A model generated the notes under the pieces. It searched no databases, was not told where the DNA came from, and saw nothing but the letters and a program-made list of their open reading frames with translations. This document shows positions 5,561 through 61,530 of a DNA stretch of 64,000 nucleotides, piece by piece; the stretch's first letter is position 1, and each line of letters begins with the position of its first letter. The position numbers were made by a program, and so were the translations under genes. Origin of the DNA: Candidatus Kapaibacterium sp. (GTDB lineage Bacteria; Bacteroidota; Ignavibacteria; Palsa-1295); NCBI GenBank assembly GCA_017882165.1, contig JADGPZ010000001.1, positions 43,529 to 107,528 of the forward strand. Reading direction: 5' to 3'.

Positions 5561-5668
5561 CGTGAGCTTCCCACGAATTGTCGGACGGCAATACGAAATA
5601 GGGTTATCGCAGTCTGCTAAATCGGGGGAAGCTCAGAACTCTCTTCGCTCAGGGCGGCGTTAGTCAGT

Positions 5669-13461: not shown

Positions 13462-13477
13462 CCTTCGGAAATAACCC

Positions 13478-13582
13478 GTCATTGCGAGGAGCGACGGAGG
13501 AGCGACGAAGCAATCTCCTGAGGAAAGCCTGGACTTCGTGCCAGGGATTGCTTCGTCGTGCTTCGCACTCCTCGCAATGACG
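13478..13582. repeat. MITE/REP-like long-hairpin repeat, copy 1 (~36 bp stem)
   Basis: GTCATTGCGAGGAGCGACG...loop...GATTGCTTCGTCGTGCTTCGCACTCCTCGCAATGAC; near-identical arms to copy at 16631..16736. Confidence 0.85.
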
Positions 13583-13587
13583 ATTGT

Positions 13588-14607
<1,020 letters not shown>

Positions 14608-15339
14608 TTATACTACAAAAATACGAACATGTTGCCCCATTCGCCCAGACATTCACCGATTCGGCTCACTTATGCCATTCCATTTTAGCATTTGAGTTTG
14701 AAATTCATAATTCTCATTCACATAGACAGACCAACCTTCCACACAGACAGAACTTCATTCCGCCGGTCACAAGTTGTGCAGCTACTCGCGCTCTCGCGTC
14801 AATAGACCTGCAGCCCAGTCCACCGAATCGGAATTGAAAAGAACCCCTATATTAGTATAACATCGAAACGATGGCATTCTGTTGCAGACTTACTGGAACA
14901 CTATACCACACAACGACTTACGCGGATTATGCATTAGTCCCCATAGTGCCGACCAAGCACGTCGATCCGGTAATTCCAGCGAAGTGACCCCCTTCCACCT
15001 AATATAACGAGGTTCGACCCCCTCGGTATCGCAAGTTTTCGATGAATTCTGAAAAATTCATTCTCTGACCAGCTTTCCCAGCCACAGCGGGGCGGCGGCT
15101 TCTCAGTCCCGTTAGGGACGAAATATGTGCCTGCCCGCCCTGGCGGGTAGCCCAGTGTGGAGTCCGCCGCGGCGGGCGGAGAAGTTCGTTTATGTCTTCA
15201 TGGAACGGGCAACCGCTTTCCGAAAGCCCGGTGAAACTTTTCACCCCCCTCACGCCACGTTATGCTTGTATGGCGCGCCGACGCGACATGCAACAATTGA
15301 AATCAGTCCACGTCGTTCACACTTTTACGTTATTCGGTT

Positions 15340-16602
15340 ATGAAACGAATCAGTACCATCCTTTCGCTTTTCAGTGCAATTGCACTGCTTGCAATGCCGG
15401 GCGCCACCCGCGCGCAAACGATAACACTCAATTCGGTTTCGGCGACGCATTTCTGCGCAGGCGATCCCCTTTCCGTCACATTCACCGCGACCGGGACGTG
15501 GGGACATAATAATGCATTCACGCTCGAGCTTTCGGACACCAGCGGAAGCTTCTCGATCTCATTTTCCAATATCGGCTCTGTTGCCGACACGGCGCCCGGC
15601 ACCTTTACAAGTGCTTCCACGATTCCATCCTCGGCGTCGGCTTCGACCCATTATCGCATTCGTGTGATTGGAGCTTACCCATATATTGCGAGTAACGACA
15701 ACGGCAGTGATCTCACAATCAACGCATTACCGCCTACTTTAGGGATAAATTTCCCATTTGCGATGTCTGGAACTCCGCTAGAAATCAAATTAGCAACCGG
15801 GTTCCTCGATTCCATCGAAATGGCCGACAGTGTGTTTTGGAATTTCGGGATTGATGCAGCTCCAGCAACAGTAGCCGGTACATTGGGAACCGCATCGAAT
15901 GAGACAATTATCTACGCAACGGGAGGTATGAAGACCATCGAGGTTCGGATACAAAACTCGGCCGGATGTTTTGTAACATCAACGAAATCAGCCAACGTTC
16001 TGGACTGCGATCCGACGATTCCGAAGGATGCTATAGTGATTGCTTCCAGCCAGGAGATCGGCTTTGGATCATCTACGATATGGGTTAATCCGGGAGTGAC
16101 AGTAACACTGGGAGGTGGCAGCAACACCATATTCGCTGAGACTGGAGCTACAGTCGTGAATGGCGGAGGAGGAAGCGAGTTGATTTATCTGAAGCCGGGC
16201 GCTGCATACATGGGAGGCGGTGGTGGTGGCAACACAATCATCTATGCGGCCGGGGCGAGTGTTCAGGGTGGTGGTGGAATTGAATGCCCATCCCTCCAAT
16301 TCGATTATACTGATGCACCGCCGAATGCTGTCATGGCCGCGTTCGAAGGTGTTGCACCAGCCGCTTCTTTGGAAATAATTGAGTTATATCCAAATCCAAC
16401 AAATGGCATCGTCACGCTGCAAAACCTTCCGATGGGTGCGAATGTAATGGTGATGAATGTGCTTGGCGAGACGGTGCAAACCGAAACCGAGCGTGGCGAT
16501 GCGAACCTTACGCTCGATCTTTCGGGAGTTGCAGCCGGAACCTATTACATCCGAATCGCCTCGAACAATGGCGTGATGACGAAGAAGATTGTAAAAGAAT
16601 GA
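15340..16602 (+). CDS. secreted protein with Gly-rich repeats and T9SS C-terminal sorting domain
   Basis: Signal peptide MKRISTILSLFSAIALLAMPGATRAQ; C-terminal ELYPNPTNGIVTLQNLP...GTYYIRIASNNG CTD. Confidence 0.8.
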   Translation: MKRISTILSLFSAIALLAMPGATRAQTITLNSVSATHFCAGDPLSVTFTATGTWGHNNAFTLELSDTSGSFSISFSNIGSVADTAPGTFTSASTIPSSASASTHYRIRVIGAYPYIASNDNGSDLTINALPPTLGINFPFAMSGTPLEIKLATGFLDSIEMADSVFWNFGIDAAPATVAGTLGTASNETIIYATGGMKTIEVRIQNSAGCFVTSTKSANVLDCDPTIPKDAIVIASSQEIGFGSSTIWVNPGVTVTLGGGSNTIFAETGATVVNGGGGSELIYLKPGAAYMGGGGGGNTIIYAAGASVQGGGGIECPSLQFDYTDAPPNAVMAAFEGVAPAASLEIIELYPNPTNGIVTLQNLPMGANVMVMNVLGETVQTETERGDANLTLDLSGVAAGTYYIRIASNNGVMTKKIVKE

Positions 16603-16630
16603 ATGGAGTGGTGATCTGTTTTTCAAGAAC

Positions 16631-16736
16631 GTCATTGCGAGGAGCGACGAAGGAGCGACGAAGCAATCCTTTGCGGGAAGTGCTCGGACTTCGTGGTGGG
16701 GATTGCTTCGTCGTGCTTCGCACTCCTCGCAATGAC
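16631..16736. repeat. MITE/REP-like long-hairpin repeat, copy 2
   Basis: Arms identical (1 mismatch) to 13478..13582; loop diverged. Confidence 0.85.
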
Positions 16737-27655: not shown

Positions 27656-28906
27656 ATGCCCGTCCCGCGCAAGCAACTCGAGCTTCCCGATATGCTCGAT
27701 CGGAAGAACTTCGACATCACGACGTTTTTTTCCGTTCTCCTTCTCGTCACCGCCGGCTTCCTCGCGATCTACAGCGCGACCTACGCGGCCAACATGAACA
27801 ACCGTTTCGGCTCACAGTTGTTGTTCGCCGGGATCGGCATCGCTGGCATGATCGTCATGGCGATGCTGCCGGTTCGCTGGTTTCAGGCCATCGCGTATCC
27901 ACTCTATGGAATCAGCATCGCGCTTCTGATTTTTGTTGCCTTCCAGGGTAAGCTCGTCTATGGTCACCGCAGTTGGATTGCAATCGGCAGCTTCCAGTTT
28001 CAGCCGTCCGAAATCGCAAAGCTCGCGACCATCTTCACTATCGGCGCATTCCTGAACAAAGGCCGCGATTTGAGAGACATCAAGAACATCCTGATCGTCT
28101 GCGGACTGGTCCTGCTCCCCATCGCGCTCATCCTTAAAGAGCCCGATCCTGGCACGGCCGTTATCTTTGCGGGCGTGATGGTTGTGCTTCTGCTCTGGTC
28201 CGGCGTCGATCTCTTTCTCCTCGCGGCGGTCGTCATTCCTGTACTTGTCGCCGTGCTATCACTCTTCGGACAGACGCCGACGATTGTTTCCGTGCTCGCG
28301 GGCGGCATCATCTTCTTCTTTGTCTTCCGGCGCAATCTTGTCCTGACGGTACTCGCCTTCGGAGTTGTGATAGCGATTGCCTTCTCCACGAATTTCATCT
28401 ACGAGCATCTACATCAGTTCCAACGCAATCGCATACAGGTGTTGCTCGATCCAGAACTCGATCCGCTCGGCGCGGGATACAATGTCATTCAGACGCGCAT
28501 GGCGATTGGCTCCGGCGGACTGTTAGGCAAAGGGTATCTGCGCGGCACTCAGACGCAACTCCGCTACGTACCGAAGCAGTGGACCGACTTCATCATCAGC
28601 GTGCCGGCGGAGGAATTCGGATTTGCGGGCGCGGTGGTGATCCTGATGCTCTACCTCTTCGTGATCTTCCGAGGCGTCGCGATTGCATCCAGTGTGCGAA
28701 GTATTTTCTCCAGCGTCGTCGCGATGGGTATCGCCGGCATCTGGTTCTTGCACGTGACCGTCAACATCGGCATGGCGCTCGGACTCATGCCCGTCATCGG
28801 TATCCCGCTGCCGTTCATGTCCTACGGCGGCTCCGCGCTGCTGACCAATCTCCTCATGGCCGGCATCCTGATGAATCTCTACCGCAACCGGAAGGTGCTA
28901 TTTTAA
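27656..28906 (+). CDS. rodA: FtsW/RodA/SpoVE family peptidoglycan glycosyltransferase (likely RodA)
   Basis: 10 TM segments and SEDS family conserved blocks (FQPSEIAKL, PDPGTA, RMAIGSGGLLGKG, DFI). Confidence 0.88.
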   Translation: MPVPRKQLELPDMLDRKNFDITTFFSVLLLVTAGFLAIYSATYAANMNNRFGSQLLFAGIGIAGMIVMAMLPVRWFQAIAYPLYGISIALLIFVAFQGKLVYGHRSWIAIGSFQFQPSEIAKLATIFTIGAFLNKGRDLRDIKNILIVCGLVLLPIALILKEPDPGTAVIFAGVMVVLLLWSGVDLFLLAAVVIPVLVAVLSLFGQTPTIVSVLAGGIIFFFVFRRNLVLTVLAFGVVIAIAFSTNFIYEHLHQFQRNRIQVLLDPELDPLGAGYNVIQTRMAIGSGGLLGKGYLRGTQTQLRYVPKQWTDFIISVPAEEFGFAGAVVILMLYLFVIFRGVAIASSVRSIFSSVVAMGIAGIWFLHVTVNIGMALGLMPVIGIPLPFMSYGGSALLTNLLMAGILMNLYRNRKVLF

Positions 28907-28914
28907 CCGCGAGG

Positions 28915-30963
28915 TTATTCGAACATAGAGACTTTCGCAAATCGCCGTTCTCCGCTCTCGGACTGAAACACGACGAAATACACTCCTGCCGGAAGCGGCC
29001 CCGTGATGTAGTTGGCGATTCCAGCTTGTGCTTGTGAAGAATAGAAGCACCGGCCATCCGAGCGATAGACATAAACGCTTCCCCGCTCCGAAGGCGGAGT
29101 GATGGTGATACGTCCGCGATTGGCATACGCTTTGAGCGGTTCTTCGGAATGCATTGGCCAGGGTTGAACCCCAGCGGAAGCTGCGCTCTTCAAAACAACA
29201 ACGGTTCCATCGTCACATCCTATAGCGACGTTGCCAGTGACGGCATTTAGTGCGGCTGAAGTGATCTTCTCACCTGCATAGTATATCGAGTCTACTATTT
29301 TCCCAGTGTAGCAATCGAAGATTCTTACGATTGAGTCCGTTAGCGGAGGAATTGCCACGTTCCTATCTCCTGGCATGAGTACCATTCCATACAGCCATGG
29401 GTTGCCCGAAACAGTCGCCACTGTCAAGCTGTCATTGTCAAGATTATGAATCTCAAATTGATATGGTGCAGCGCGGCCAAAAACGATTCTCCTGTCATCG
29501 GACGTAAATTCAGCCGACAACAAAAAGCCCGTATAAGGAATGGTCTTCATTCTCTGATGAGTCAACCGATCCCAAATTACAAAATCACTTCCCTCGGGAA
29601 CCCCAATCATTTCACCGGAATGAGAATAACACGCGAAAGTAGCAGCATGGGCGATATCGTAGCGGTGAATGATCTCTAAGCTCTTGGCGCTCCATTCGAA
29701 CATTTCTCCAGATTCCGAAGTCGTTACAAAGGAAGTGTCATCCGGGGAGAATGTTGCAGACCAGATGTTGCCGGTATGACCAAATAACACCTGCGCCGAG
29801 TCTGAGGCTTTCGACCAAAATCTCAAAGTATCGCTGTTTGCGGAGACGATAAAGGAAGCGTCGCGGGAAACCGAGAGGCACGATTGAACGCTATCGCAGG
29901 TGAGCAGCCTCTTTCTGATCCCAGATTGCGCTTCCCACACCATGATGGATTGATCGCGAGAAGAGCTTACGAGCCAATTCCCATCAGGAGAAAATGCAAT
30001 ATTGCGTATAGTCCAATTGTGTGAATTCAGTGACCCAAGGTAAGTCCGCTGCAAGATCGAGTAAAGCGAAACGTCGCTTCCACCCGTGACAACGATTGTG
30101 TCAATGCCAATAAACGAAAGGAGCGTTGCGCCCATCGGAGTTTGAATCAGTGCCACAGAGGAATCCGACGGCTTCATTAATTGGATTCCGCCAATGATGG
30201 CTGCTGCTATAATCTGTCTGCCGGGACTATAGGCAATAGCATTATTATCAGCCTCGGTAGAGAGAGGCCACTGACACGCCACAGTACCCGATGTATCCAG
30301 TACGAACAGGCCATGATCTTCAACGTAAATCTGATCTGATCTCAATGGAGAAAATCCGAGAGCTGACGGAGGATTTAAGAATTGCGCATACCGATGAATG
30401 ATGTGATGAGATGCAACGTCAATGAGTTCAACGCTTCGATTTATCCCGGTGAGAAGAGATCGGCCGTCAGGGCTGAAGCGAACTGGACCCTGCACATTCG
30501 ACCATGTGCCAACCTCTGCGGCATTTCCTCTGTCAAAAAGGTGCAAGATCCAATCATCCGTGATGTAAGCGATGAGGTTGCCGTTAGGAGTTGCATCCAG
30601 AGACAGCACTGTGTTGTTGGCCCAATTGACCACTTGGGCATAGGTGTTCTTGAACGGGTTCCAAGAAACGATCCCTTGACCTCCTGCAAGCAGTTCCGAG
30701 TCGCTTTCGAGAAAAGCCGAACACTTCCCAAGCCCGACAAGCCCATAACGATTTCGCTGCGCCCGCTCACCAGATTTGAGGGACCAATAGCCTCCTTCGC
30801 CATTCAAACTTGCAGTGAAGACACTCTGATCGCGTTCCGATGCGGAAATGCACGTAACAATATCACTCGGCCCAGAGACGCGAGACCACAGAACGTCCCA
30901 GCCGCTCTGAGCGGAGGCGACATCCGCCAAGAATAGTGAAATTATGGCAAGCAGTATCTTCAA
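28915..30963 (-). CDS. WD40/beta-propeller repeat protein with T9SS C-terminal sorting domain
   Basis: Signal peptide; many SxDG/SPDG blade repeats; C-terminal VYVYRSDGRCFYS...GVYFVVFQSESGERRFAKV CTD; visibly lower GC than flanks. Confidence 0.72.
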   Translation of the reverse strand: MKILLAIISLFLADVASAQSGWDVLWSRVSGPSDIVTCISASERDQSVFTASLNGEGGYWSLKSGERAQRNRYGLVGLGKCSAFLESDSELLAGGQGIVSWNPFKNTYAQVVNWANNTVLSLDATPNGNLIAYITDDWILHLFDRGNAAEVGTWSNVQGPVRFSPDGRSLLTGINRSVELIDVASHHIIHRYAQFLNPPSALGFSPLRSDQIYVEDHGLFVLDTSGTVACQWPLSTEADNNAIAYSPGRQIIAAAIIGGIQLMKPSDSSVALIQTPMGATLLSFIGIDTIVVTGGSDVSLYSILQRTYLGSLNSHNWTIRNIAFSPDGNWLVSSSRDQSIMVWEAQSGIRKRLLTCDSVQSCLSVSRDASFIVSANSDTLRFWSKASDSAQVLFGHTGNIWSATFSPDDTSFVTTSESGEMFEWSAKSLEIIHRYDIAHAATFACYSHSGEMIGVPEGSDFVIWDRLTHQRMKTIPYTGFLLSAEFTSDDRRIVFGRAAPYQFEIHNLDNDSLTVATVSGNPWLYGMVLMPGDRNVAIPPLTDSIVRIFDCYTGKIVDSIYYAGEKITSAALNAVTGNVAIGCDDGTVVVLKSAASAGVQPWPMHSEEPLKAYANRGRITITPPSERGSVYVYRSDGRCFYSSQAQAGIANYITGPLPAGVYFVVFQSESGERRFAKVSMFE

Positions 30964-31033
30964 TTCAGTGCTTGATGCAAGCGATTAAGCAATACCGCCC
31001 TACTCGTGTAGAGAGATGCGTTTGAAATTCAAT

Positions 31034-31477
31034 CTACTTCCCCGGCTTCGTGCTCTCGAAGAAGCGGATGTTCGCGTCGATGCGATCATCATTTCCATAT
31101 AACCTCAACCAAACCCGAATCAATAATCTCCTCGTCGGGGTCAGGATTGGGATACCAAGCACGCGCGCGGTCGAGACGATCAGCCGGTCACGGAGCTCGA
31201 GTCCGAGAACATTCTGAGCTTCCAAGATAACCGGGAGATCGATATCTACTAAGCGATAGTTGGTCAGTGCCGAGAGCTTCTCGGTAAATTGGGCAAGGTT
31301 TAGAGGAATCCTACCTTTCTCCGATAGATACAGGATTTCCGCAACGGTCATGATCGATACCGCAATTCTGTTCTTCCCGCGATCCGCCGATTGAAGTAAT
31401 AACTTCGCTCTCTCGGGAATCGACCCTGTTCGAGAGAAGTGGCGAACGATCGTAACAGTATCGGCTAAGAACTCCAC
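31034..31477 (-). CDS. PIN-domain toxin (VapC-like); C-terminal ~25 aa are a diverged duplicate of the MlaD-like C-terminus
   Basis: MEFLADTVTIV (N-terminal Asp), ...VAEIL, LRDRLIVSTARVLGIPILT PIN motifs. Confidence 0.6.
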   Translation of the reverse strand: MEFLADTVTIVRHFSRTGSIPERAKLLLQSADRGKNRIAVSIMTVAEILYLSEKGRIPLNLAQFTEKLSALTNYRLVDIDLPVILEAQNVLGLELRDRLIVSTARVLGIPILTPTRRLLIRVWLRLYGNDDRIDANIRFFESTKPGK

Positions 31478-31725
31478 CGATCACATTTATTAAGAAGGTG
31501 CTCGGATGATTCCTTCCTCAGCTTGCGGACTTCCCCTTCCAGATCGCCAAATTGCTCCCAGCCGAGGCCTTCCCAAATCCCTTCCAACGATTCGACGTTA
31601 CTCGGAGCGGGACGAATGTTCCTAAGGAGCGTTCTGATGAACTCCCGCACTTCCGCAAGCTTGTCGGCCGGGAGGTTCGCGAGATCGCGCTTAATCTCGG
31701 TGAGTTCAATAGCTCTCGGAGTCAT
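31465..31725 (-). CDS. type II antitoxin (DUF2281-like, VapB-type partner)
   Basis: 13-nt overlap with PIN gene; LPADKLAEVREFIRTLL and C-terminal GIWEGLGWEQFGD typical of DUF2281-like antitoxins. Confidence 0.5.
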   Translation of the reverse strand: MTPRAIELTEIKRDLANLPADKLAEVREFIRTLLRNIRPAPSNVESLEGIWEGLGWEQFGDLEGEVRKLRKESSEHLLNKCDRWSS

Positions 31726-31815
31726 ACAATCTAAACGAGCCCTTTGCGGGGAAGTTCGGATACGCGTTTGGACACGAACCGACGAAAGGCGTTAACATAG
31801 GCAGATAAAACGCCG

Positions 31816-32754
31816 CTACTTCACTGGTTTCGAGCTATTGAACAGCCGAACGTTCGCGTCGAGGCCCTGGAGGCGGAGTTGCTCCATGAGTTTGAGGAGG
31901 GAGGCGACGGTGCTGTCCAAACGGTTGGCGAATTGCTCGTCCTTCGTCAGACGGTAGAGCAATGTGTTGGGCTTGTCGGCGCTTGCAAGAAGACTGTCGA
32001 GGCGCACGGCTAACCGGTTCGCACGAATGAGCGCCGTGCGTGCCTCGCCCACGGCCATCGATCCGGTGTCGATCAAAGTCTTGAGACCCGCTCTGTTCTC
32101 CGCAAGCATGTGTGTGAGATCGCGCGTCGCAGTGTCGGCCTGCGCAAATGTGTGCCGGATCGCTGTGCCGTTCTCGTCAAGCAGTGCGGATGCGCGCTTC
32201 GCGATCTGATTGACACTCACCAGCGTGGCGCTCAGTTCGTTCTTGATGGTATCGCCCCTGAACATACTGTTGAGCGCCGTGAACAGCGTGTCCCCTTTGA
32301 CGACGAGCGATTCAAGTGTTGCCGAAAGCGAGTTGACCATCGCGACGAGTGTACTGACATCGCCGGCATAGATCCCGTGCATGATCTTATTGGGCGGCCA
32401 CTTCCCGGTATCCACGCCGGATTTGATCTCGACCTTCTTTCCGCTCATGAGTTCGAGCATGGAAATCTGTATGGATGCATCCTTGCGCAAATCGACCGAC
32501 GAGTCAAAGTCCATCGAGACCATGACGTCCGTATCGCGCGGTGTCACCGCGTGGACGAGGCCACGCTTAATGCCGTTCACCATGACCGGATCGCCGGCCG
32601 CGAGGCCGCCGGCGGTCGGGAAGACCGCCCGGACGACAACCTCATTCGGGCCAAAATGCCAGCTTTTCCCCCACAGAATGCCAAAAAGCATCAGCGCGAC
32701 TGCCACAAGCACCGTCGCGCCTACCTTAATGTCCGTTCGCTCTTCTTTAGTCAC
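31816..32754 (-). CDS. MCE-family protein (MlaD-like outer-membrane lipid asymmetry component)
   Basis: N-terminal TM then MCE domain (VRAVFPTAGGLAAGDPVMVNGIKRGLV...), long helical C-terminus. Confidence 0.82.
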   Translation of the reverse strand: MTKEERTDIKVGATVLVAVALMLFGILWGKSWHFGPNEVVVRAVFPTAGGLAAGDPVMVNGIKRGLVHAVTPRDTDVMVSMDFDSSVDLRKDASIQISMLELMSGKKVEIKSGVDTGKWPPNKIMHGIYAGDVSTLVAMVNSLSATLESLVVKGDTLFTALNSMFRGDTIKNELSATLVSVNQIAKRASALLDENGTAIRHTFAQADTATRDLTHMLAENRAGLKTLIDTGSMAVGEARTALIRANRLAVRLDSLLASADKPNTLLYRLTKDEQFANRLDSTVASLLKLMEQLRLQGLDANVRLFNSSKPVK

Positions 32755-33124
32755 GATACAACTAACGAGATTATCTGAACAATCACTTCACCGGCAATTC
32801 CGCCGAGGCGATCCCGCCGGGCCGAGCAACTCGGTTAGCTGCTCCGCCTGCGCGCGGTTCTTGGAGGAATAGGAGATGAAGATGTCAGACATAGTGCCAG
32901 TGAACCAGCACAAAGTTACGGCAGTCGAATTCTTCCCGCGCAAAAAGCATTTTACCGGGTTCGGGATTACCACCTCACACTTTTCCACCTTTTTCCGCTT
33001 GGCTAAGACCGTTCGTAAGTCGAGATCGAAAGCTGTGGCTCCGCCACCGAATGGAGACGCGGCCAGGACCATCGCCCACGATGGGGCCGCGCCACGCGAT
33101 TCAGGGGTGCCACGCGATCTTGCC

Positions 33125-35971: not shown

Positions 35972-36310
35972 ATGAAATTCATGTTGTTCATTTTCGTCGG
36001 ATTGATTATCTTATCGATCGTCAATCTGATGTTCCTTCTTAATAACGGTCCAAGTCTCGCTTATTTGCTGGTTTTTTACAATGACATCATTCTGATCGGC
36101 GCGTTTCTCATATTCGCGTTTGTCAAGTCGATGCGTACTTTGCGAAAATACAATTACGGGATTCTGTTGCTCCTGTGCGCTGCAGTTTATTTCCTCGACA
36201 AAGGTTCGAACGACACGATTCAGAAAGCAGCGATTGCATTCTCATTGGCGATCATTGCTCTTCAAATCATAGAAGCCATAGTGTTTCGTAAAGCGAAGAT
36301 TCATATCTAA
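35972..36310 (+). CDS. hypothetical small integral membrane protein (low-GC gene)
   Basis: Three to four hydrophobic helices; ~42% GC versus ~60% flanks; stop overlaps relic lpxB ATG (TAATG). Confidence 0.45.
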   Translation: MKFMLFIFVGLIILSIVNLMFLLNNGPSLAYLLVFYNDIILIGAFLIFAFVKSMRTLRKYNYGILLLLCAAVYFLDKGSNDTIQKAAIAFSLAIIALQIIEAIVFRKAKIHI

Positions 36311-36357
36311 TGACTCGTTCGATCATGCTCATTGCCGGCGAGGCCTCCGGCGACCGG
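36310..36357 (+). pseudogene. relic duplicate of the lpxB 5-prime end (first 16 codons, MTRSIMLIAGEASGDR) followed by frame loss
   Basis: ~85% nt identity to 36922..36969 (true lpxB start MTRNIMLIAGEASGDR). Confidence 0.6.
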
Positions 36358-36395
36358 AATAAGAACGAGATCTGGCCCTTGGATGTTGCCCAGTC

Positions 36396-36614
36396 ATGCT
36401 CCCCTCTATCGAAGCCATCGTCGAAAAAGACGGACGAATTCGTCCCCTCGAACGCGTGAATGTGCGTGAGGGTACGCATGCAATTGTGACGTTCCTATCG
36501 GAGCCGAATGAATTGGTTCGCAACGACACGGCTCTGCTGAGCGAAGCGGCGCTCTCCGATTGGAACAGACCGGAAGAAGACGAAGCATGGGCCTATTTGC
36601 AAAAGGGTCGATAG
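36396..36614 (+). CDS. type II antitoxin, DUF104-like N-terminus
   Basis: IEAIVEKDGRIRPLERVNVREGTHAIV matches DUF104 antitoxin pattern; overlaps downstream toxin gene. Confidence 0.5.
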   Translation: MLPSIEAIVEKDGRIRPLERVNVREGTHAIVTFLSEPNELVRNDTALLSEAALSDWNRPEEDEAWAYLQKGR

Positions 36615-36925
36615 TTCTCGTCCCTTATCCTTTTAGCGATCTTTCTGGAACAAAGCTGAGGCCCGCGCTGGTCTTGGCTGAAGTGTCGTTCAATGATTAT
36701 GTGTTTTGCCAAATAACCACAAAACCGTATGGAGCGAAGCATGTTGTCCCGATTAAACCTGAGCTAAACCCACAATCGGGGCTTCACGCGTTAAGCTACC
36801 TGAGGCCGGAAAAAGTCTTTACTGGCAACGAAAATCTCATTCTCGAACAGATTGGAGTTTTGGAAGAACGTACTGTTGAAGAAGTTGTGGACTCCATTAC
36901 TGCAATTCTTCGCTCTGGGCGATGA
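36587..36925 (+). CDS. MazF/PemK-family endoribonuclease toxin
   Basis: GSIVLVPYPFSDLSGTKLRPALVL hallmark N-terminus; stop overlaps lpxB ATG (ATGA). Confidence 0.72.
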   Translation: MGLFAKGSIVLVPYPFSDLSGTKLRPALVLAEVSFNDYVFCQITTKPYGAKHVVPIKPELNPQSGLHALSYLRPEKVFTGNENLILEQIGVLEERTVEEVVDSITAILRSGR

Positions 36926-38088
36926 CCCGCAACATCATGCTCATTGCCGGGGAAGCATCCGGCGACCGGATTGCGGCGCGGGCCATACGCGCGGTGAATG
37001 CGCTTGCGCGTGAGCGGGGCATTCTGGCGAGCGTATATGGTATTGCGGGGGATGAGTGCGCGGCGGAAGGTGTCGAGTATTTACACACGGCGCGTGAGAT
37101 GTCGGTCGTTGGCTTCGTCGAGGTTGCGCGGCGGTTTCGGTTCTTCCGTAACGTGCTGCGGGAGATGACGGAGTTGCTCGACACTCGGCGGCCCGATGTG
37201 CTCTTGCTCGTCGATTATCCGGGCTTTAACATCCGACTCGCGCGGGAGGCGAAGAAGCGTGGCATCCGGGTCGTCTATTATGTGAGTCCGCAAGTTTGGG
37301 CATGGCATGCCTCGCGCATTGACGTGCTGAGGGAAGTTGTGAATGAGATGCTCGTCGTGTTTCCGTTCGAGGAGTCGTTATACCACGAACATGGACTGAC
37401 AAACGCGCACTTTGTCGGTCATCCGCTCGTCGAGCGCATCGAAGAAGAGCGTTCAGCATTCCGCTCGCGCGAATTATTTGCGAGCGCCTACGGGCTTGAC
37501 GCATCTCGCGAGTGGCTGCTTGTATTTTCCGGCAGCCGGAGAGAGGAAGTGCGAAGATTGCTGCCGGTGATGGCAAACGCGGCTGGTCTCTTTGCGGCAA
37601 AACACTATCTTCAGCCAATCCTGGTAGAATCCGAAGCAATCGAGGAGAATCGATATGACCTATCGGTCGGATCCGACCAATCAGACCGATCCACGGAGAT
37701 TGTACGTTTCCGCGACGCGAAAGCGACCCACGAGCTAATGTCTCACGCCGCACTGGGTCTGCTCAAGAGCGGTACGACTACGCTGGAGGCAGCGCTGCTG
37801 GGGCTGCCCGGCATCATTGTCTACAAAACCCATCCTGTTTCCTTCGCGATTGGCAAGCGGGTTGTGAAATTGCAGTATATTGGGCTGGCTAATATCGTGC
37901 TGGGACAGAAGCTGTATCCTGAGTTATTGCAACATGATGTAACAGTGAACAAGATAGTGGACGAGTTGGACGAAGTATGGAGACGCGCTGACAGCTTTCG
38001 AGAATCGCTTCATGGCCTGGCCGATAGTTTGCGTGGCCCTGCACCCGGACCGTCGCGCCGTGTGGCGGAAACATTACTGGCCGGATGA
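36922..38088 (+). CDS. lpxB: lipid-A-disaccharide synthase
   Basis: N-terminal IMLIAGEASGD and family-wide conservation (LLLVDYPGFN, YYVSPQVWAW). Confidence 0.92.
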   Translation: MTRNIMLIAGEASGDRIAARAIRAVNALARERGILASVYGIAGDECAAEGVEYLHTAREMSVVGFVEVARRFRFFRNVLREMTELLDTRRPDVLLLVDYPGFNIRLAREAKKRGIRVVYYVSPQVWAWHASRIDVLREVVNEMLVVFPFEESLYHEHGLTNAHFVGHPLVERIEEERSAFRSRELFASAYGLDASREWLLVFSGSRREEVRRLLPVMANAAGLFAAKHYLQPILVESEAIEENRYDLSVGSDQSDRSTEIVRFRDAKATHELMSHAALGLLKSGTTTLEAALLGLPGIIVYKTHPVSFAIGKRVVKLQYIGLANIVLGQKLYPELLQHDVTVNKIVDELDEVWRRADSFRESLHGLADSLRGPAPGPSRRVAETLLAG

Positions 38089-44154: not shown

Positions 44155-44571
44155 GGCAAACCGATTAAGTTGTTACCAAATGGTGGAGTACAAATATAGT
44201 CAATCCCGACGCGTTATGCAAGTCCCGCCTCGCGCGGCGGAGATTCCTGGGATGGCGAGGCGCTTACTCTGCGGCTGCTGTTGGAACGGCAGATCATCGA
44301 CACCTCGTTCTGGGATGACGATGAAGACGATTGCACTACTGCGGAGAGGCAAAAAAGTGCCGAAAACCGTGGATGATCGTGAGATCACCCATGATCTCAC
44401 ATCACCCACGAAAGCCCCCAAGCGCCGGAAGGCGAAGGCGGGTATACACAGTCCCGAGCTGACGGCCAAGCTGCGGAAGGCGCTGGAAGATATCGAGCAG
44501 GATCGCGTCCATACCGTCGATCCGAACAATCACCGCGACGGGTTCAAGGAGTTGCTCAAAAAGAAGAAGCC

Positions 44572-45054
44572 CTAAGATCTCGTGTGCGATCCCCGGTGTA
44601 GTTGGGGATTATCGACGTTCGCCCCCGGCACTTCGCTCGCGCGCTTCCGCTTTATCACGTCAATAATTTGACAGCACAGTTTATCCTGCTCGGGTGATAA
44701 GTCCGCCTGGTCGGCTTTGGAGAATCCCATCAGGAAGTAAATCTCGCCGTGGATGTGAGGATAGTAAACGATCCGGTATCCATCGCGCGCGCCCACATTC
44801 TGTCGTGGCAAGTCGATTTTGTGCGCGCCGCACGCATTTCGAAGATTCGCGCCACGTCTCGGCACGGAGATGAATTGCAATCGCTTTTCGAGATCGAGAA
44901 ATCGCTCGATGAGTCGCGTGTCCTCTGCTTCGTATTCTAAGAATGTTTCGAGAAACGACTCGATGTAATAGGGCCGATACGCCAGCGCATAATCGCCGGC
45001 CCGCCGCGCCTTGAACGCCGCGACCGCTTCTTCGAACCGTGCCAGGAAACCCAT
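44572..45054 (-). CDS. HigB-2/Gp49-like toxin-domain protein (RelE/ParE superfamily), apparently orphan
   Basis: Core GARDGYRIVYYPHIHGEIYFLMGFSKADQADLSPEQ resembles HigB-2 (GGSRIIYYF...FYLLTIYGKNEMSDL). Confidence 0.4.
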   Translation of the reverse strand: MGFLARFEEAVAAFKARRAGDYALAYRPYYIESFLETFLEYEAEDTRLIERFLDLEKRLQFISVPRRGANLRNACGAHKIDLPRQNVGARDGYRIVYYPHIHGEIYFLMGFSKADQADLSPEQDKLCCQIIDVIKRKRASEVPGANVDNPQLHRGSHTRS

Positions 45055-45071
45055 AGGCTACAAAGATACGG

Positions 45072-45123
45072 CGTTCTCGCTCTTGCCTGCGCGAGCGCTC
45101 CGGATATTCTTAGGATGGCGAGG
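45072..45123. repeat. ~52-bp direct repeat R1 flanking the rhuM fragment
   Basis: CGTTCTCGCTCTTGCCTGCGCGAGCGCTCCGGATATTCTTAGGATGGCGAGG versus R2 at 45576..45631. Confidence 0.7.
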
Positions 45124-45215
45124 GGCTTGCGCTGCGTCTGATGTTTACTCCGTCGTGCGTTTCCGAGCGATTGCCCGCAAATGTCGTATATTTACATCGA
45201 TAGTAATAGGCACCC

Positions 45216-45575
45216 ATGACACAGAACGAAACCCCCGCAGACGGCCAGCCTTCAGGGCAGCTACTTATTTACGAAGACGGCGGACTGAACATCCAGGTGC
45301 GCCTCGATGGCGACACCGTGTGGCTGACGCAGCGGCTCATCGCGGAGCTGTATCAGGTATCGCTTCCGACCATCAGCGAGCACTTGACGAATATTTATGC
45401 GGAAGGCGAGCTTTTTCCAGAGCCAACTATTCGGAATTTCCGAATAGTTCAAATCGAAGGTGGCCGCAAGGTGGCCCGTGCCCTCGATCACTATAGTCTC
45501 GATGCCGTTCTCGCCGTTGGCTACCGAGTTCGCTCCGAGCATGGGACGAAGTTTCGCCAATGGGCGACCGCACGA
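45216..45575 (+). pseudogene. truncated rhuM-like (virulence RhuM/Fic-associated family) gene, N-terminal ~120 codons only
   Basis: LLIYEDGGLNIQVRLDGDTVWLTQRLIAELYQVSLPTISEHLTNIYAEGEL matches RhuM N-terminal domain; reading frame degenerates inside repeat R2. Confidence 0.55.
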
Positions 45576-45631
45576 CGCTCTCGCTCGTTCTTGTCTGCGC
45601 GAGCGAACCGGATATTCTTGGGATGGGGAGG
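45576..45631. repeat. ~56-bp direct repeat R2
   Basis: CGCTCTCGCTCGTTCTTGTCTGCGCGAGCGAACCGGATATTCTTGGGATGGGGAGG. Confidence 0.7.
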
Positions 45632-45647
45632 TATCTCAAGAGTCAGA

Positions 45648-46397
45648 TCAGTCAGATCCTGGCTTTTGTAGAATCAATCCTGAAAGTATTGACCCGTAAA
45701 GTCCATATTCTGCAAGCATTCTCACATGCTTGCCGCCAAGATCGGAATCGATTGCGCGCGATGCTTTCCGGACCAGTTTCTCAAGCTTCATCGCTTCGCA
45801 CGCTTTGATCGACACGTCCAGAACATGCATCATCGTCACCAATGAATGAATTGGATTCGGATCTGAACCGAGTTCCTCTGAGACGTTCCTCACTAAAATT
45901 GAAAACAGAGAATTCCCTTTGAACGTGATGTCCTCTGCCGACAACAATTCCGTGCATGCTCCATATTCGTGCTCGGCGGAATTAATGTTATTGACGAATT
46001 CAAATCGAACCCCCTCCTTACGCTCTTCGAGCCAATTACCACATGCACTCTCTACGCTTGTGAAGATGATTTCTGGCATGAGAAAATCTTGAAGGCGCTG
46101 TCTGCTCATATCGCCTAACAATCCGAAGCACCTCCTCATAGTAAGGTGCATGAAAAAATAGATGTACTCATACATCAGTTCGAGTTCTCGAAGTTGTCTG
46201 GCTTTGTCGTCCGTTTCGACGATCAAGGATCTTAGCTCCCGTTGGCAAGCTTGTGCGGCTACAAAAATCGCGAGCTCAATATTTTGAAGTGGCCGCAGCT
46301 TTCGACTTTCATGTCGTCCCTTTTGACGCGCCTCATGGAACGTCCTTTTGGTCTCCCGATCTTTCGGGCTTCCGTACAATCTCGATAGTATTCCCAT
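45648..46397 (-). CDS. hypothetical all-alpha protein, co-transcribed partner of the cyclase-like gene (low GC)
   Basis: 249-aa ORF 11 bp downstream of 46408..47178 on the same strand; no TM, no recognisable domain. Confidence 0.5.
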   Translation of the reverse strand: MGILSRLYGSPKDRETKRTFHEARQKGRHESRKLRPLQNIELAIFVAAQACQRELRSLIVETDDKARQLRELELMYEYIYFFMHLTMRRCFGLLGDMSRQRLQDFLMPEIIFTSVESACGNWLEERKEGVRFEFVNNINSAEHEYGACTELLSAEDITFKGNSLFSILVRNVSEELGSDPNPIHSLVTMMHVLDVSIKACEAMKLEKLVRKASRAIDSDLGGKHVRMLAEYGLYGSILSGLILQKPGSD

Positions 46398-61059: not shown

Positions 61060-61355
61060 AAAATGATTATGACAATGAAGAGATCAGCGATGGATCATTC
61101 GACCGGAGTTGCTTCTGGATGGCTCGGAGAGTTCGTCGTCAGTTCGATGAGCCATTTAAACGGGCGGTGGTCGAGCAGGTGGAATGTCTGGGTCGCAGCC
61201 GGTCATCGGTTGCCCGGAATTTCGAGTTAGACCCGAAGGTGCTTCGCCGATGGCTCCGGGAGTATGCGAATCCGCAGCATATCCACTCGGCGCTGAACTA
61301 TCAAACGCCCATCGAGTGGGAATGGCACCGAACACGAAACAGCAATTCGAAATAG
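61060..61355 (+). mobile_element. degenerate IS3-family remnant (frameshifted OrfA HTH fused to the extreme C-terminus of OrfB)
   Basis: MKRS... then frameshift to RRQFDEPFKRAVVEQVECLGRSRSSVARNFELDPKVLRRWLREY (IS3 OrfA) followed directly by HSALNYQTPIEWEW (IS3 integrase C-terminus). Confidence 0.55.
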
Positions 61356-61530
61356 GGTTACCGCTGCCCGCCAAATCAGGGGAAGGTCCGCGCCGAAGAT
61401 GCCGGAGCAGTGGATGCCCCCTTTCCTCGTGTGGCGAGTCCGGCAGGTTGTTTCCGGGCTGGAGATGGTGGGCACAGAATTTGCATGATGCGAACGCAGT
61501 GTACTTTGTAATTAACTCAAAGGCCAAATT

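What the first reader, a model, noticed from the sequence alone, without database searches (positions are those of the whole stretch)
31034..31890. VapBC-like TA cassette at the 3-prime end of mlaD-like gene with a diverged ~80-bp duplicate of the host gene terminus
The last ~25 codons of the PIN-toxin ORF (…LRLYGNDDRIDANIRFFESTKPGK*) are homologous to the last codons of the upstream MCE/MlaD-like gene (…LRLQGLDANVRLFNSSKPVK*). Both end with the same TAG in the context CTACTTC. Nucleotide identity is ~70% over ~80 bp with a 9-bp indel (31034..31117 versus 31816..31890). The vapBC segment between the copies, like the adjacent WD40 cargo gene, has lower GC. This is the same architecture as the lpxB case: a TA cassette bracketed by duplicated host-gene termini.
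Basis: seen in the sequence. Interest (0 to 1): 0.65.

Follow-up and report, generated by a model that had tools for sequence, protein, structure and literature searches.

The report
Toxin-antitoxin cassette with duplicated gene end
A small, decaying toxin-antitoxin cassette was inserted at the end of a lipid-transport gene together with a 50-base copy of that gene's end, an insertion style so far described mainly for restriction-modification genes; the odd "hybrid" toxin tail is only a frameshift reading into the leftover copy.

Summary
The repeat is real but shorter than described. It is 50 nt (31816-31865 vs 31034-31083), 38/50 identical, and covers the last 16 codons plus the TAG of the mlaD-like gene.

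The "PIN ORF with MlaD-like tail" is decay, not a fusion. Relatives of this VapC are 129 aa and end ...GLVEVIWK*. Here a 1-nt deletion (about 31137-31141, at the codon of the fourth acidic residue) shifts the frame. Reading then passes the native TGATGA stop (31086-31091) and enters the stranded mlaD end, which happens to be in frame.

Close relatives (L007, L047) carry an intact vapBC at the same spot. There copy B abuts a rodA 3' remnant, which marks the ancestral mlaD|rodA junction with touching stop codons. Seventeen other orthologous loci have one tail and no cassette.

The same cassette family also sits behind an RRM gene in other Kapabacteria. There it is flanked by 33-42-nt duplications of that gene's terminator, and empty sites exist.

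I found no integrase or transposase among the immediate neighbours checked, and no tRNA or terminal inverted repeats.

This matches "insertion with long target duplication", known for restriction-modification modules and seen here for toxin-antitoxin cassettes. Mosaic identity around copy A points to homology-anchored recombination as the mechanism; that step is inferred.

The parts
31816..32754 (-). mlaD-like gene (312 aa), intact; its working 3' end is copy A
   Evidence: Pfam MlaD, E 4e-12. Orthologues of 312 aa occur across Kapabacteria with a conserved tail, QG[LI]DAN[IV]RF[FW]NSSKPxK.
31816..31865 (-). Copy A of the duplicated terminus (16 codons plus TAG)
   Evidence: 38/50 identical to copy B. 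It belongs to a stretch of about 490 nt (mlaD nt 601 to vapB nt ~90) that is 94-100% identical to L007, while the rest of mlaD is 81-86% identical.
31758..31815 (-). 58-nt leader specific to the mlaD locus, between the mlaD stop and the conserved cassette
   Evidence: Shared only with L005, L007 and L047 (93-100%). It is absent from the same cassette family at other loci.
31726..31757 (-). Conserved upstream region of the cassette (GAACTTCC box to the vapB ATG); a presumed promoter/operator
   Evidence: Homology among cassettes at four different loci begins here. The function is inferred and was not tested.
31465..31725 (-). vapB-like antitoxin gene (86 aa), intact
   Evidence: It is always paired with the PIN gene in L002-L004, L007, L047, L050 and L051. 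It has no Pfam or NCBIfam match. It overlaps the vapC start by 13 nt.
31034..31477 (-). Frameshifted vapC (PIN) ORF of 147 aa; the native CDS would be 31089-31477 (129 aa)
   Evidence: Pfam PIN, E 3e-8. Homologues are 129 aa and match only residues 1 to about 117. The alternative frame gives PDEEIIDSGLVEVIWK**.
31137..31141 (-). Site of the 1-nt deletion (CTGAC-CCCGAC), at the codon of the fourth conserved acidic residue
   Evidence: There is a one-column gap relative to L002, L003, L004, L007 and L047. The deletion is also present in an independent assembly, L005, which is 98.8% identical.
31086..31091 (-). Native vapC double stop (TGATGA), bypassed by the frameshift
   Evidence: Homology among the cassettes ends exactly here.
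31034..31083 (-). Copy B: the stranded original mlaD 3' end, now read as the last 16 codons of the frameshifted ORF
   Evidence: In L007 and L047 the equivalent copy directly abuts a rodA 3'-end remnant. Its identity to the L007 copy is 82%, the background level.
28915..30963 (-). WD40 beta-propeller gene (accessory, GC 0.50), lying between copy B and rodA
   Evidence: Pfam WD40 and beta-propeller families. It is absent from L006, L007 and L047, where other DNA follows.
27656..28906 (+). rodA/ftsW-family gene, the ancestral convergent neighbour of mlaD
   Evidence: Pfam FTSW_RODA_SPOVE in L005 and L006. Its last ~50 nt recur, in reverse complement, right after copy B in L007.
36310..36970 (+). 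Parallel case. It comprises the lpxB 5' remnant (36310-36358), an AF2212-like antitoxin (36396-36614), a MazF/PemK toxin (36560-36925) and the working lpxB start (36922-36970)
   Evidence: About 41/49 identity between the copies (40/48 counted; 92% over 37 nt). Pfam PemK_toxin, E 3.6e-9. uvrA and lpxB are adjacent or overlapping with no cassette in L006, L009, L010, L011 and L015.

Best explanation
Shown:
- A horizontally mobile vapBC toxin-antitoxin cassette of about 0.7 kb sits at what was a spacer-less convergent junction between mlaD and rodA. It consists of a short promoter region, an 86-aa antitoxin gene and a 129-aa PIN toxin gene, with no mobility gene.
- The insertion came with a long duplication of the target, the last 50 nt of mlaD here and 60 to about 80 nt in a relative. 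mlaD therefore keeps a complete end (copy A).
- The original end (copy B) was left stranded behind the cassette.
- In this genome the toxin gene has since lost one base at the codon of its fourth catalytic acidic residue.
- The shifted frame skips the native TGATGA stop and runs into copy B, which by chance (1 in 3) is in the old mlaD frame. This produces the apparent PIN protein with an MlaD tail.

Inferred:
- The toxin is probably dead, so the module is decaying.
- No cassette-encoded enzyme did the insertion. Host recombination integrated incoming DNA in which the cassette already lay directly after an mlaD stop codon.
- A homologous anchor in mlaD served on one side.
- On the other side there was either an illegitimate joint 50-80 nt inside the resident mlaD end, or a single crossover of a circularised fragment.
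- This would explain why one repeat boundary is exactly the stop codon, why repeat length varies, and why copy A travels with the cassette while copy B looks resident.
For: Repeat and annotation:
- The repeat is real and unique in the window.
- Pfam annotates MlaD and PIN.

Frameshift:
- Homologues are 129 aa and end ...DEEITDSGLVEVIWK.
- The alternative frame restores PDEEIIDSGLVEVIWK**.
- The 1-nt gap shows in DNA alignments.
- It is shared by a second assembly that is 98.8% identical.

Same locus in relatives:
- L007 and L047 have an intact vapBC.
- Copy B there is followed immediately by the reverse complement of the rodA C-terminus codons and stop, 95% identical to window 28853-28899, and then by unrelated DNA.

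Empty state:
- L006 (MlaD 79% identical) and 16 more distant orthologous loci have a single tail and no vapBC. Eleven of the 17 have more than 3 kb of downstream sequence.

Mobility of the cassette:
- The same family (76-78% nt identity) occurs in at least three other contexts.
- At the RRM-gene locus it is flanked by 42-nt (39/42) and 33-nt (31/33) direct repeats of that gene's terminator hairpin.
- That hairpin is single-copy in the empty sites L052 and L053.

No mobility machinery:
- No tRNA in the window.
- No Rfam hit between 27 and 39 kb.
- No integrase or transposase among the neighbours checked.
- No terminal inverted repeats.

Mosaic, window versus L007:
- mlaD 1-300: 81%. mlaD 301-600: 86%. 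mlaD 601-891: 96%.
- Copy A: 94%. Leader: 94%. First ~90 nt of vapB: 97-100%.
- Rest of vapBC: 58-63%. Copy B: 82%.

Literature:
- Furuta et al. 2010 (PMC2853133) and Nobusato et al. 2000 describe this insertion style for restriction-modification modules. The flanking repeats there range from 46-47 bp to about 400 bp, often span the start or stop of a flanking gene, and come with no mobility genes.
- Integration of DNA carrying part of a target gene yields duplications of 109-950 bp in E. coli (PMC3240628).
Against: - The mechanism was not observed. The mosaic could equally reflect later homologous exchange between lineages that both already carried the cassette.
- The 48-nt comparison that might tell which copy is foreign is too short to decide: A-B 36/48, A-L006 39/48, B-L006 41/48.
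- L047 combines the L007-type vapBC allele with the window-type short copy-B junction. At least one extra recombination or deletion step must therefore be assumed.
- The cassette at L004, and at the RRM locus in L002 and L003, has no flanking repeat. Duplication is therefore not obligatory, or it gets lost.
- That the frameshifted toxin is inactive is inferred from the lost acidic residue, not tested.
Confidence: 0.7

Rival explanations
1. Site-specific integration. The cassette is a small integrative element whose attachment site mimics the mlaD 3' end, as islands that target tRNA or gene ends do. A tyrosine or serine recombinase encoded elsewhere in the genome inserts it.
For: - The geometry fits: the gene terminus is regenerated and the displaced copy lies at the far end.
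- Both copies end at the same GAAGTAG.
- A second accessory segment starts exactly after the copy B stop, as in tandem island arrays.
Against: - No recombinase gene in or beside the cassette, or among the neighbours checked.
- No tRNA in the window.
- The same cassette family is flanked by duplications of unrelated targets: the mlaD coding end and an RRM-gene terminator hairpin. These differ in length, at 50, 60-80, 33 and 42 nt.
- At some loci there is no repeat at all.
- The left junction is not constant: 58 extra nt at the mlaD locus.
Confidence: 0.1
2. True target-site duplication by a trans-acting transposase. The cassette would be a non-autonomous mobile insertion cassette, and the enzyme would cut the target with a very long stagger, as IS30-type IS1630 does when it duplicates terminator-like inverted repeats.
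For: - Two independent insertion sites of one cassette family both show duplications.
- At the RRM locus the duplicated target is a terminator hairpin, the target type cited for IS1630 in PMC2853133.
Against: - No terminal inverted repeats at the cassette ends.
- The left boundary varies between loci.
- Repeat lengths of 33 to about 80 nt are longer and more variable than those of known transposases.
- No transposase gene was seen among the neighbours checked.
Confidence: 0.08
3. A functional chimera. The PIN protein has acquired an MlaD-derived C-terminal tail that gives it a new property, roughly the first reader's reading.
For: - The 147-aa ORF is uninterrupted.
- It is identical in two strains that are 98.8% identical in DNA.
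Against: - The fusion arises from a 1-nt deletion that removes the fourth conserved acidic residue and the last 15 native residues.
- Intact relatives at the same locus terminate before copy B.
- 17 of the 33 new residues are simply vapC's own 3' end and stop codons read out of frame.
Confidence: 0.03
4. Copy B is a remnant of a second, tandem mlaD paralogue largely deleted or overwritten by the cassette, or else a chance or convergent similarity.
For: The MlaD tail is a strongly conserved peptide motif in this family, so any second mlaD gene would show it.
Against: - None of 17 other orthologous loci has a second tail or a tandem paralogue.
- Copy B abuts the rodA stop, the ancestral neighbour of the single mlaD.
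- The similarity is at nucleotide level and reaches 90% over 60 nt in L007.
- The shuffle z-score is about 12.
Confidence: 0.02

Closest known systems
Insertion with long target duplication of restriction-modification gene complexes (Nobusato et al. 2000, Gene 259:99; Furuta, Abe & Kobayashi 2010, PMC2853133)
   Same: - A small addiction-type module with no mobility gene.
- It is flanked by direct repeats longer than 30 bp that are single-copy at the empty site.
- The repeats often span the start or stop codon of the neighbouring gene, so that gene stays intact.
- The insert often has deviant GC.
- Repeat lengths are variable, from 46-47 bp up to about 400 bp.
   Different: - The cargo here is a type II toxin-antitoxin pair with an RNase-type toxin (PIN; MazF in the lpxB case), not a DNA-cutting system. 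The published idea that the element's own double-strand breakage drives the insertion therefore cannot apply.
- The repeats here are old and diverged (76%).
- One copy has been absorbed into a frameshifted toxin ORF.
Homology-facilitated illegitimate recombination, and single-crossover integration of DNA carrying part of a target gene (de Vries & Wackernagel 2002; Prudhomme et al. 2002; PMC3240628; invoked for T6SS and Rhs 'displaced 3' ends' in PMC5361080)
   Same: - A one-sided homologous anchor in a conserved gene and a non-homologous joint at the other end.
- It leaves displaced or orphan gene ends downstream.
- Duplications of part of the homologous locus were obtained experimentally.
- The mosaic identity around copy A fits an anchor in mlaD.
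   Different: - It is not demonstrated here.
- Competence of these Kapabacteria is unknown.
- The experimental duplications were 109-950 bp.
Integrative islands that insert into the 3' end of tRNA or protein genes and carry a replacement end
   Same: A duplicated gene terminus brackets the insert, the gene remains functional, and further inserts stack at the same point.
   Different: There is no integrase, no tRNA and no common core. The targets are unrelated and the repeat lengths differ for one cassette family.
ParE/ParD-like module behind the orthocaspase gene of Microcystis aeruginosa, 'fenced' by two 152-bp direct repeats (PMC7935541)
   Same: A toxin-antitoxin pair sits directly downstream of a host gene and is flanked by direct repeats.
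   Different: Those repeats are identical and intergenic and contain an inverted repeat. They are not a copy of the host gene's coding end, and no empty-site comparison was reported in the passages read.
VapBC type II toxin-antitoxin systems
   Same: A PIN-domain toxin is preceded by a small overlapping antitoxin gene. The pairing is conserved across loci.
   Different: - The antitoxin matches no Pfam or NCBIfam family.
- This copy of the toxin is frameshifted and lacks the fourth acidic residue.

Membership tests
Insertion with long target duplication (criteria of Furuta et al. 2010) | The insert is flanked by direct repeats longer than 30 bp | tested here: met
   - mlaD locus in this window: 50 nt, 38/50 identical.
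- Same locus in L007: 60 nt, 54/60.
- Same cassette family at the RRM locus: 42 nt (39/42) and 33 nt (31/33).
Insertion with long target duplication (criteria of Furuta et al. 2010) | A related genome has an empty site in which the repeated sequence is single-copy and aligns with both copies | tested here: met
   - mlaD: L006 has a single tail that aligns with both copies (A 39/48, B 41/48); 16 further orthologous loci also have one tail and no cassette. In L006 other accessory genes follow the stop, so the site is cassette-free rather than pristine.
- RRM locus: clean empty sites L052 and L053 with one hairpin.
Insertion with long target duplication (criteria of Furuta et al. 2010) | The insert is under 20 kb and has no integrase, transposase or other mobile-element gene | tested here: met
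   - The insert is about 730 nt and holds only vapB and vapC.
- The neighbours are rodA, a WD40 gene, mlaD, uvrA, lpxB, DUF374, lpxK and others.
- No tRNA.
- The whole window was not scanned for recombinases.
Insertion with long target duplication (criteria of Furuta et al. 2010) | The cargo is a restriction-modification system | tested here: not met
   The cargo is a PIN toxin with its antitoxin. This is the respect in which the case extends the known kind.
VapBC type II toxin-antitoxin | PIN-domain toxin with four conserved acidic residues | tested here: not met
   - The PIN domain is present (E 3e-8).
- The residue aligned with the conserved D of ...T(P/S)D(E/x)... is lost through the frameshift.
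- Intact in L007, L047 and L002-L004.
VapBC type II toxin-antitoxin | A small upstream antitoxin gene, co-oriented and overlapping, conserved as a pair | tested here: met
   - The 86-aa ORF overlaps the vapC start by 13 nt.
- The pair is conserved at all eight other loci.
- The antitoxin fold and family are unassigned.
VapBC type II toxin-antitoxin | Toxicity neutralised by the antitoxin | not testable with these tools
   Needs expression experiments.
Integrase-mediated integrative element with an att site mimicking a gene end | A cognate recombinase and a constant crossover core shared by all insertion sites | tested here: not met
   - No recombinase nearby.
- The targets at the two loci (mlaD coding end and RRM terminator hairpin) are unrelated and the repeat lengths differ.
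Non-autonomous transposon / mobile insertion cassette | Terminal inverted repeats and constant element ends | tested here: not met
   - No terminal inverted repeats at the cassette ends in the window, L050 or L051. The only long inverted matches are the duplicated hairpins themselves.
- The left end is variable.
Integron gene cassette | An attC recombination site at the cassette's 3' end and an intI/attI platform | not tested
   - No integrase was seen among the neighbours.
- Copy B is a copy of the host gene end rather than an attC-like imperfect palindrome on inspection, but attC structure models were not run.

The most novel reading that the evidence does not exclude
- In these Kapabacteria, small toxin-antitoxin cassettes may spread without any recombinase of their own, by capturing the terminus of the host gene they land beside.
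- The unit made of gene end plus cassette would then be integrated by host recombination into naive genomes at the homologous gene end. Integration would use a homologous anchor plus an illegitimate joint, or a single crossover of a looped-out circle. Either route regenerates the gene and leaves a fossil end.
- Four duplicated targets in this clade (mlaD end, rodA end, lpxB start, RRM terminator) would be footprints of one general, host-driven route.
- That route would also explain the long target duplications of restriction-modification modules without invoking their nucleases.
Probability: 0.3. Interest if true: 0.55.

Novelty: new member of a known kind. Interest (0 to 1): 0.35.

Why it matters
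- It resolves an apparent toxin/lipid-transporter hybrid protein as a frameshifted, probably dead toxin gene reading into a leftover gene end. That matters for annotation: the public gene call is a 105-aa protein with this tail.
- It extends "insertion with long target duplication" from restriction-modification systems to toxin-antitoxin cassettes whose toxins cut RNA. This argues that the duplication is made by host recombination or repair, not by the element's own DNA cleavage.
- The fossil junction gives an unusually clear before-and-after picture. It consists of the old mlaD end touching an old rodA end, sandwiched between two later insertions. It shows how accessory genes enter spacer-less junctions between essential genes without breaking them.

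Tried and rejected
- A genome-contig scan with MlaD found only one distant (23%) relative, which was useless for synteny.
- An exact look-up of the MazF protein found nothing on record, so no second genome with the lpxB cassette was available.
- NCBIfam gave no names for VapB, VapC, MazF or its antitoxin.
- Rfam (27-39 kb, E <= 0.1) and ARAGORN (whole window) found nothing. This rules out an RNA gene as the integration target.
- The sigma-70 promoter and terminator scan of 30800-32900 was at background level. These bacteria may use other promoter types, so this says little.
- I tried to decide which copy is foreign from 48-nt distances (A-B 36, A-L006 39, B-L006 41 of 48). The sequence is too short.
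- I tested whether the 58-nt leader at the mlaD locus carries a remnant of the RRM-locus terminator flank, which would show the cassette came from there. There is only a weak match to one of six sequences (p = 0.002-0.005 uncorrected), so it is not claimed.
- The "LRLYG versus LRLQG" extension of the repeat is rejected. Only 6 of 15 nt are identical, and the sequence is vapC's own end.
- Terminal inverted repeats were searched for and not found.
- The overall fold energy of the mlaD-end to vapB region is unremarkable (z -0.2 to -0.3).
Full report

All the genes concerned lie on the - strand.
- The mlaD-like gene is 32754..31816 (312 aa; Pfam MlaD, E 4e-12).
- An 86-aa ORF follows at 31725..31465.
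- A 147-aa PIN-domain ORF follows at 31477..31034 (Pfam PIN, E 3e-8).

A formal local alignment finds one ungapped 50-nt match between the mlaD end (31865..31816) and the end of the PIN ORF (31083..31034).
- It is 38/50 identical, and both copies end GAAGTAG.
- The score is 40, against 14.2 +/- 2.1 (max 24) for shuffles.
- Sliding the mlaD end along the whole window on both strands gives 26 as the next best score.
- In a self-BLAST of the window the pair has E = 0.023.
- A tblastn search with tail peptides finds only these two copies in 64 kb.

The repeat is therefore real and is not a common motif. It is 50 nt (16 codons plus stop), not about 80 nt or 25 codons.

**2. Why the PIN ORF ends like MlaD.**
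- The closest homologues of the PIN protein are 129 aa. They align only with residues 1 to about 117 of the window ORF and all end ...T(P/S)DEEITDSGLVEVIWK.
- Translating the window in the neighbouring frame gives PDEEIIDSGLVEVIWK followed by two stops.
- DNA alignments with six homologous cassettes show a single missing base in the window: CTGAC-CCCGAC, about 31137-31141.
- The deletion falls at the codon of the conserved aspartate that forms the fourth acidic residue of PIN domains. That role is established knowledge about the PIN family, not tested here.
- The shifted frame passes the native TGATGA (31091..31086) and enters copy B two bases later, in the old mlaD frame.
Only 6 of 15 nt match mlaD there, and the same nucleotides occur in vapC at unrelated loci.
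- The deletion is also present in an independent assembly of a strain 98.8% identical in DNA (L005, from SRR30681715). It is therefore unlikely to be an assembly error.
- I infer that this toxin copy is inactive and that the module is decaying.

**3. What relatives show at the mlaD locus.**

The MlaD tail QG[LI]DAN[IV]RF[FW]NSSKPxK is conserved throughout the Kapabacteria orthologues.

A second tail copy exists only in the window's close clade: the window, L005, L047 and L007 (MlaD 85% identical).
- L007 and L047 carry an intact 129-aa vapC at the same position.
- In L007 the two tail copies are 54/60 identical, and homology may reach about 80 nt.

The most informative point is what follows copy B in L007 and L047.
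- The stop codon of copy B (TAA) is followed directly by TCAGAACAGCACCTTCCGGTTCCGGTAGAG...
- This is the reverse complement of the last codons and stop of rodA, 95% identical to window 28853-28899.
- The remnant is about 56 nt in L007 and 28 nt in L047. Unrelated DNA follows.

Three conclusions follow.
- The ancestral state was therefore a convergent mlaD|rodA pair with touching stop codons.
- Copy B is the original mlaD end still sitting in its original context, and copy A is the regenerated working end.
- The rodA end has itself been duplicated by a second insertion.

The interval also varies in other genomes.
- In the window a WD40 gene (GC 0.50) occupies the interval between copy B and rodA.
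- In L006 (MlaD 79%, rodA 91% identical) there is no vapBC and a single tail. A 4.7-kb set lies between the two stops without duplication: a methylase/HinfI restriction system, an HhH-GPD protein and two other toxin-antitoxin pairs.
- Sixteen more distant orthologous loci also have one tail and no cassette.

The interval is thus a hotspot for accessory DNA.

**4. The cassette is mobile, and it made a long duplication at a second, unrelated site.**
- The same vapBC family (76-78% nt identity, 82-84% aa for VapC) occurs behind an RRM-protein gene (L002, L003, L050, L051) and at another locus (L004).
- Homology among all copies starts about 32 nt (a GAACTTCC box) before the vapB ATG and ends at the vapC stop.
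- In L050 and L051 the cassette is bracketed by direct repeats of 42 nt (39/42) and 33 nt (31/33). These repeats are the rho-independent terminator hairpin of the RRM gene (scores 67 and 56, against 16 +/- 2 in shuffles).
- Two genomes with the same neighbours but no cassette (L052, L053) have that hairpin once.
- L002 and L003 lack the distal copy, and L004 has no repeat.
- One cassette family has therefore inserted at two unrelated targets, each time with a duplication of 33 to about 80 nt.
- I found no terminal inverted repeats and no recombinase or transposase among the neighbours checked. There is no tRNA and no Rfam match.

**5. The lpxB case.**
- Five kb away, an AF2212-like/MazF pair (36396..36925) lies between two 49-nt copies of the lpxB start (36310-36358 and 36922-36970). 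They are about 41/49 identical (40/48 counted).
- In L006 the uvrA stop overlaps the lpxB start (ATGA). In L009, L010, L011 and L015, lpxB follows uvrA within about 40 nt and no cassette is present.
- Again a spacer-less junction received a toxin-antitoxin cassette together with a duplicated gene terminus. One repeat boundary again lies exactly at the gene's end.
- A low-GC 112-aa ORF (GC 0.40) separates the fossil copy from uvrA.

**6. How it most likely came about.**

Inferred: the enzymology. Four observations point to host recombination of imported DNA rather than an element-encoded or site-specific enzyme.
- One boundary of the repeat is exactly the gene terminus (mlaD stop, lpxB start). 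The other lies at a variable distance inside the gene.
- Repeat lengths and targets vary for one cassette family.
- Window versus L007 identity is mosaic:
  - mlaD nt 1-300, 81%; nt 301-600, 86%; nt 601-891, 96%
  - copy A, 94%; leader, 94%; first ~90 nt of vapB, 97-100%
  - remainder of vapBC, 58-63%
  - copy B, 82%
- So copy A travels with the cassette's upstream part as a recently exchanged block of about 490 nt, whereas copy B diverges like the genomic background.

Suppose a donor fragment had the cassette directly after an mlaD stop. Two routes then give exactly this anatomy.
- The fragment pairs with the resident mlaD on one side and joins illegitimately 50-80 nt inside the resident tail on the other.
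- Alternatively, a circularised fragment carrying the tail integrates by a single crossover.

Both processes are documented.
- Single crossovers produced duplications of 109-950 bp of the homologous locus in E. coli (PMC3240628).

The mosaic could, however, also result from later homologous exchange between lineages that already had the cassette. L047 mixes the L007-type allele with the window-type copy-B junction, so the history involves more than one event.

**7. Comparison with what is known.**
- The architecture matches "insertion with long target duplication", described by Kobayashi's group for restriction-modification systems.
  - The inserts are small and have no mobility genes.
  - The direct repeats are longer than 30 bp (46-47 bp up to about 400 bp) and single-copy at empty sites.
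[quoted passage not shown] - A 2013 review ascribes this mode to restriction-modification systems only (PMC3874152).
- Here the cargo is a PIN/antitoxin pair, and a MazF pair nearby. Their toxins are RNases (family knowledge), so that explanation cannot hold for these cases.
- A toxin-antitoxin module flanked by direct repeats behind a host gene has been noted in Microcystis (PMC7935541). Those repeats are intergenic and identical.
- My literature searches found no description of toxin-antitoxin cassettes bracketed by duplicated host-gene termini. The library is incomplete, so this is not proof of absence.

**8. Verdict.**
- The repeat is real and the cassette interpretation is right. The hybrid-toxin reading is wrong: it is a frameshift.
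- The phenomenon is a further example of a known insertion style with a new kind of cargo.
- It is worth a note for annotation and for the question of how addiction modules enter gene-dense junctions. It is not a new kind of system.

Noticed in passing
window 44232-44282, 45076-45145, 45584-45631: A ~50-nt element appears in three copies (80-88% identical). Read on the - strand it is CCTCGCCATCC.AAGAATATCCGG..CGCTCGCGCAG.CAAGA.CGAG, and it contains a small hairpin. The copies separate two small modules lying between a 249-aa and a 727-aa gene. One module is a truncated RhuM-like ORF (45216..45671, Pfam E 5.5e-17). The other is a weak RelE-like ORF (44572..45054, E 0.002) convergent with a 140-aa ORF. 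It looks like a small cassette array with a repeated junction element.
   Followed up: partly
window 36310-36970 and 35972-36310: The lpxB 5' end is duplicated (49 nt, about 41/49) around an AF2212-like/MazF cassette. A very low-GC (0.40) 112-aa membrane-like ORF lies between uvrA and the fossil lpxB start. Relatives have uvrA and lpxB overlapping or within about 40 nt.
   Followed up: partly
window 31832-31843 and 31704-31715: A perfect 12-nt inverted repeat (GTTCAATAGCTC / GAGCTATTGAAC) links copy A of the mlaD tail with codons 4-7 of vapB. About 0.02 such matches are expected in this region. The helix appears in the MFE and centroid folds of a read-through transcript in the window, and 11/12 in L007. 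Overall fold z-scores are unremarkable (-0.2, -0.3). vapB genes of the same family at other loci use different synonymous codons there. It could couple vapB translation to mlaD read-through, or it could be chance.
   Followed up: partly
L007 2582-2637; L047 891-918: A rodA 3'-end remnant (56 nt and 28 nt) directly abuts the stop of mlaD copy B. Unrelated DNA follows, including an ORF shared by L007 and L047. This implies a second insertion that duplicated the rodA end.
   Followed up: partly
L006 7940-12596 (GCA_030706745.1): In this syntenic genome the mlaD-rodA interval holds a DNA methylase plus a HinfI-type restriction gene, an HhH-GPD protein, a different PIN pair and a DUF433/DUF5615 pair. 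They are inserted exactly between the two stop codons without duplication, which marks the site as a defence and addiction-module hotspot.
   Followed up: no
window 31465-31725 versus L007 1862-2122: The vapBC alleles are mosaic. The first ~90 nt of vapB (the presumed DNA-binding end) are 97-100% identical between the window and L007. The rest of vapB and vapC are only 58-63% identical, and the switch is sharp. This suggests allelic replacement of the toxin-binding half together with the toxin.
   Followed up: partly
L002 6380-6396 and 6844-6860: A GNAT acetyltransferase gene lies directly after vapC in L002 but is absent from L003 and L051. It is bracketed by a 17-nt direct repeat (TTTGGAAATGATTCGCC / TTTTGAAATGATTCACC), which is the vapC end. 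This may be another small gene inserted with a duplicated terminus, or it may be chance.
   Followed up: no
window 13477-13581 and 16630-16736: Two copies (88% identical) of a ~105-nt element that is itself an imperfect palindrome, 3.15 kb apart, flanking the genes at 13588..16602.
   Followed up: no
window 31758-31815 versus L051 146-174: There is a weak similarity between the mlaD-locus leader and the sequence just after the RRM-gene terminator (TAAC.C.TT--TCGT.G--GTTCGTGT). Uncorrected p is 0.002-0.005, and it appears in only one of six comparisons. It would suggest that the mlaD-locus cassette came from the RRM locus with part of its flank.
   Followed up: yes
window 5585-5634 and 61339-61388: A 50-nt direct match (82% identical) between two places 56 kb apart. 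It was not examined.
   Followed up: no
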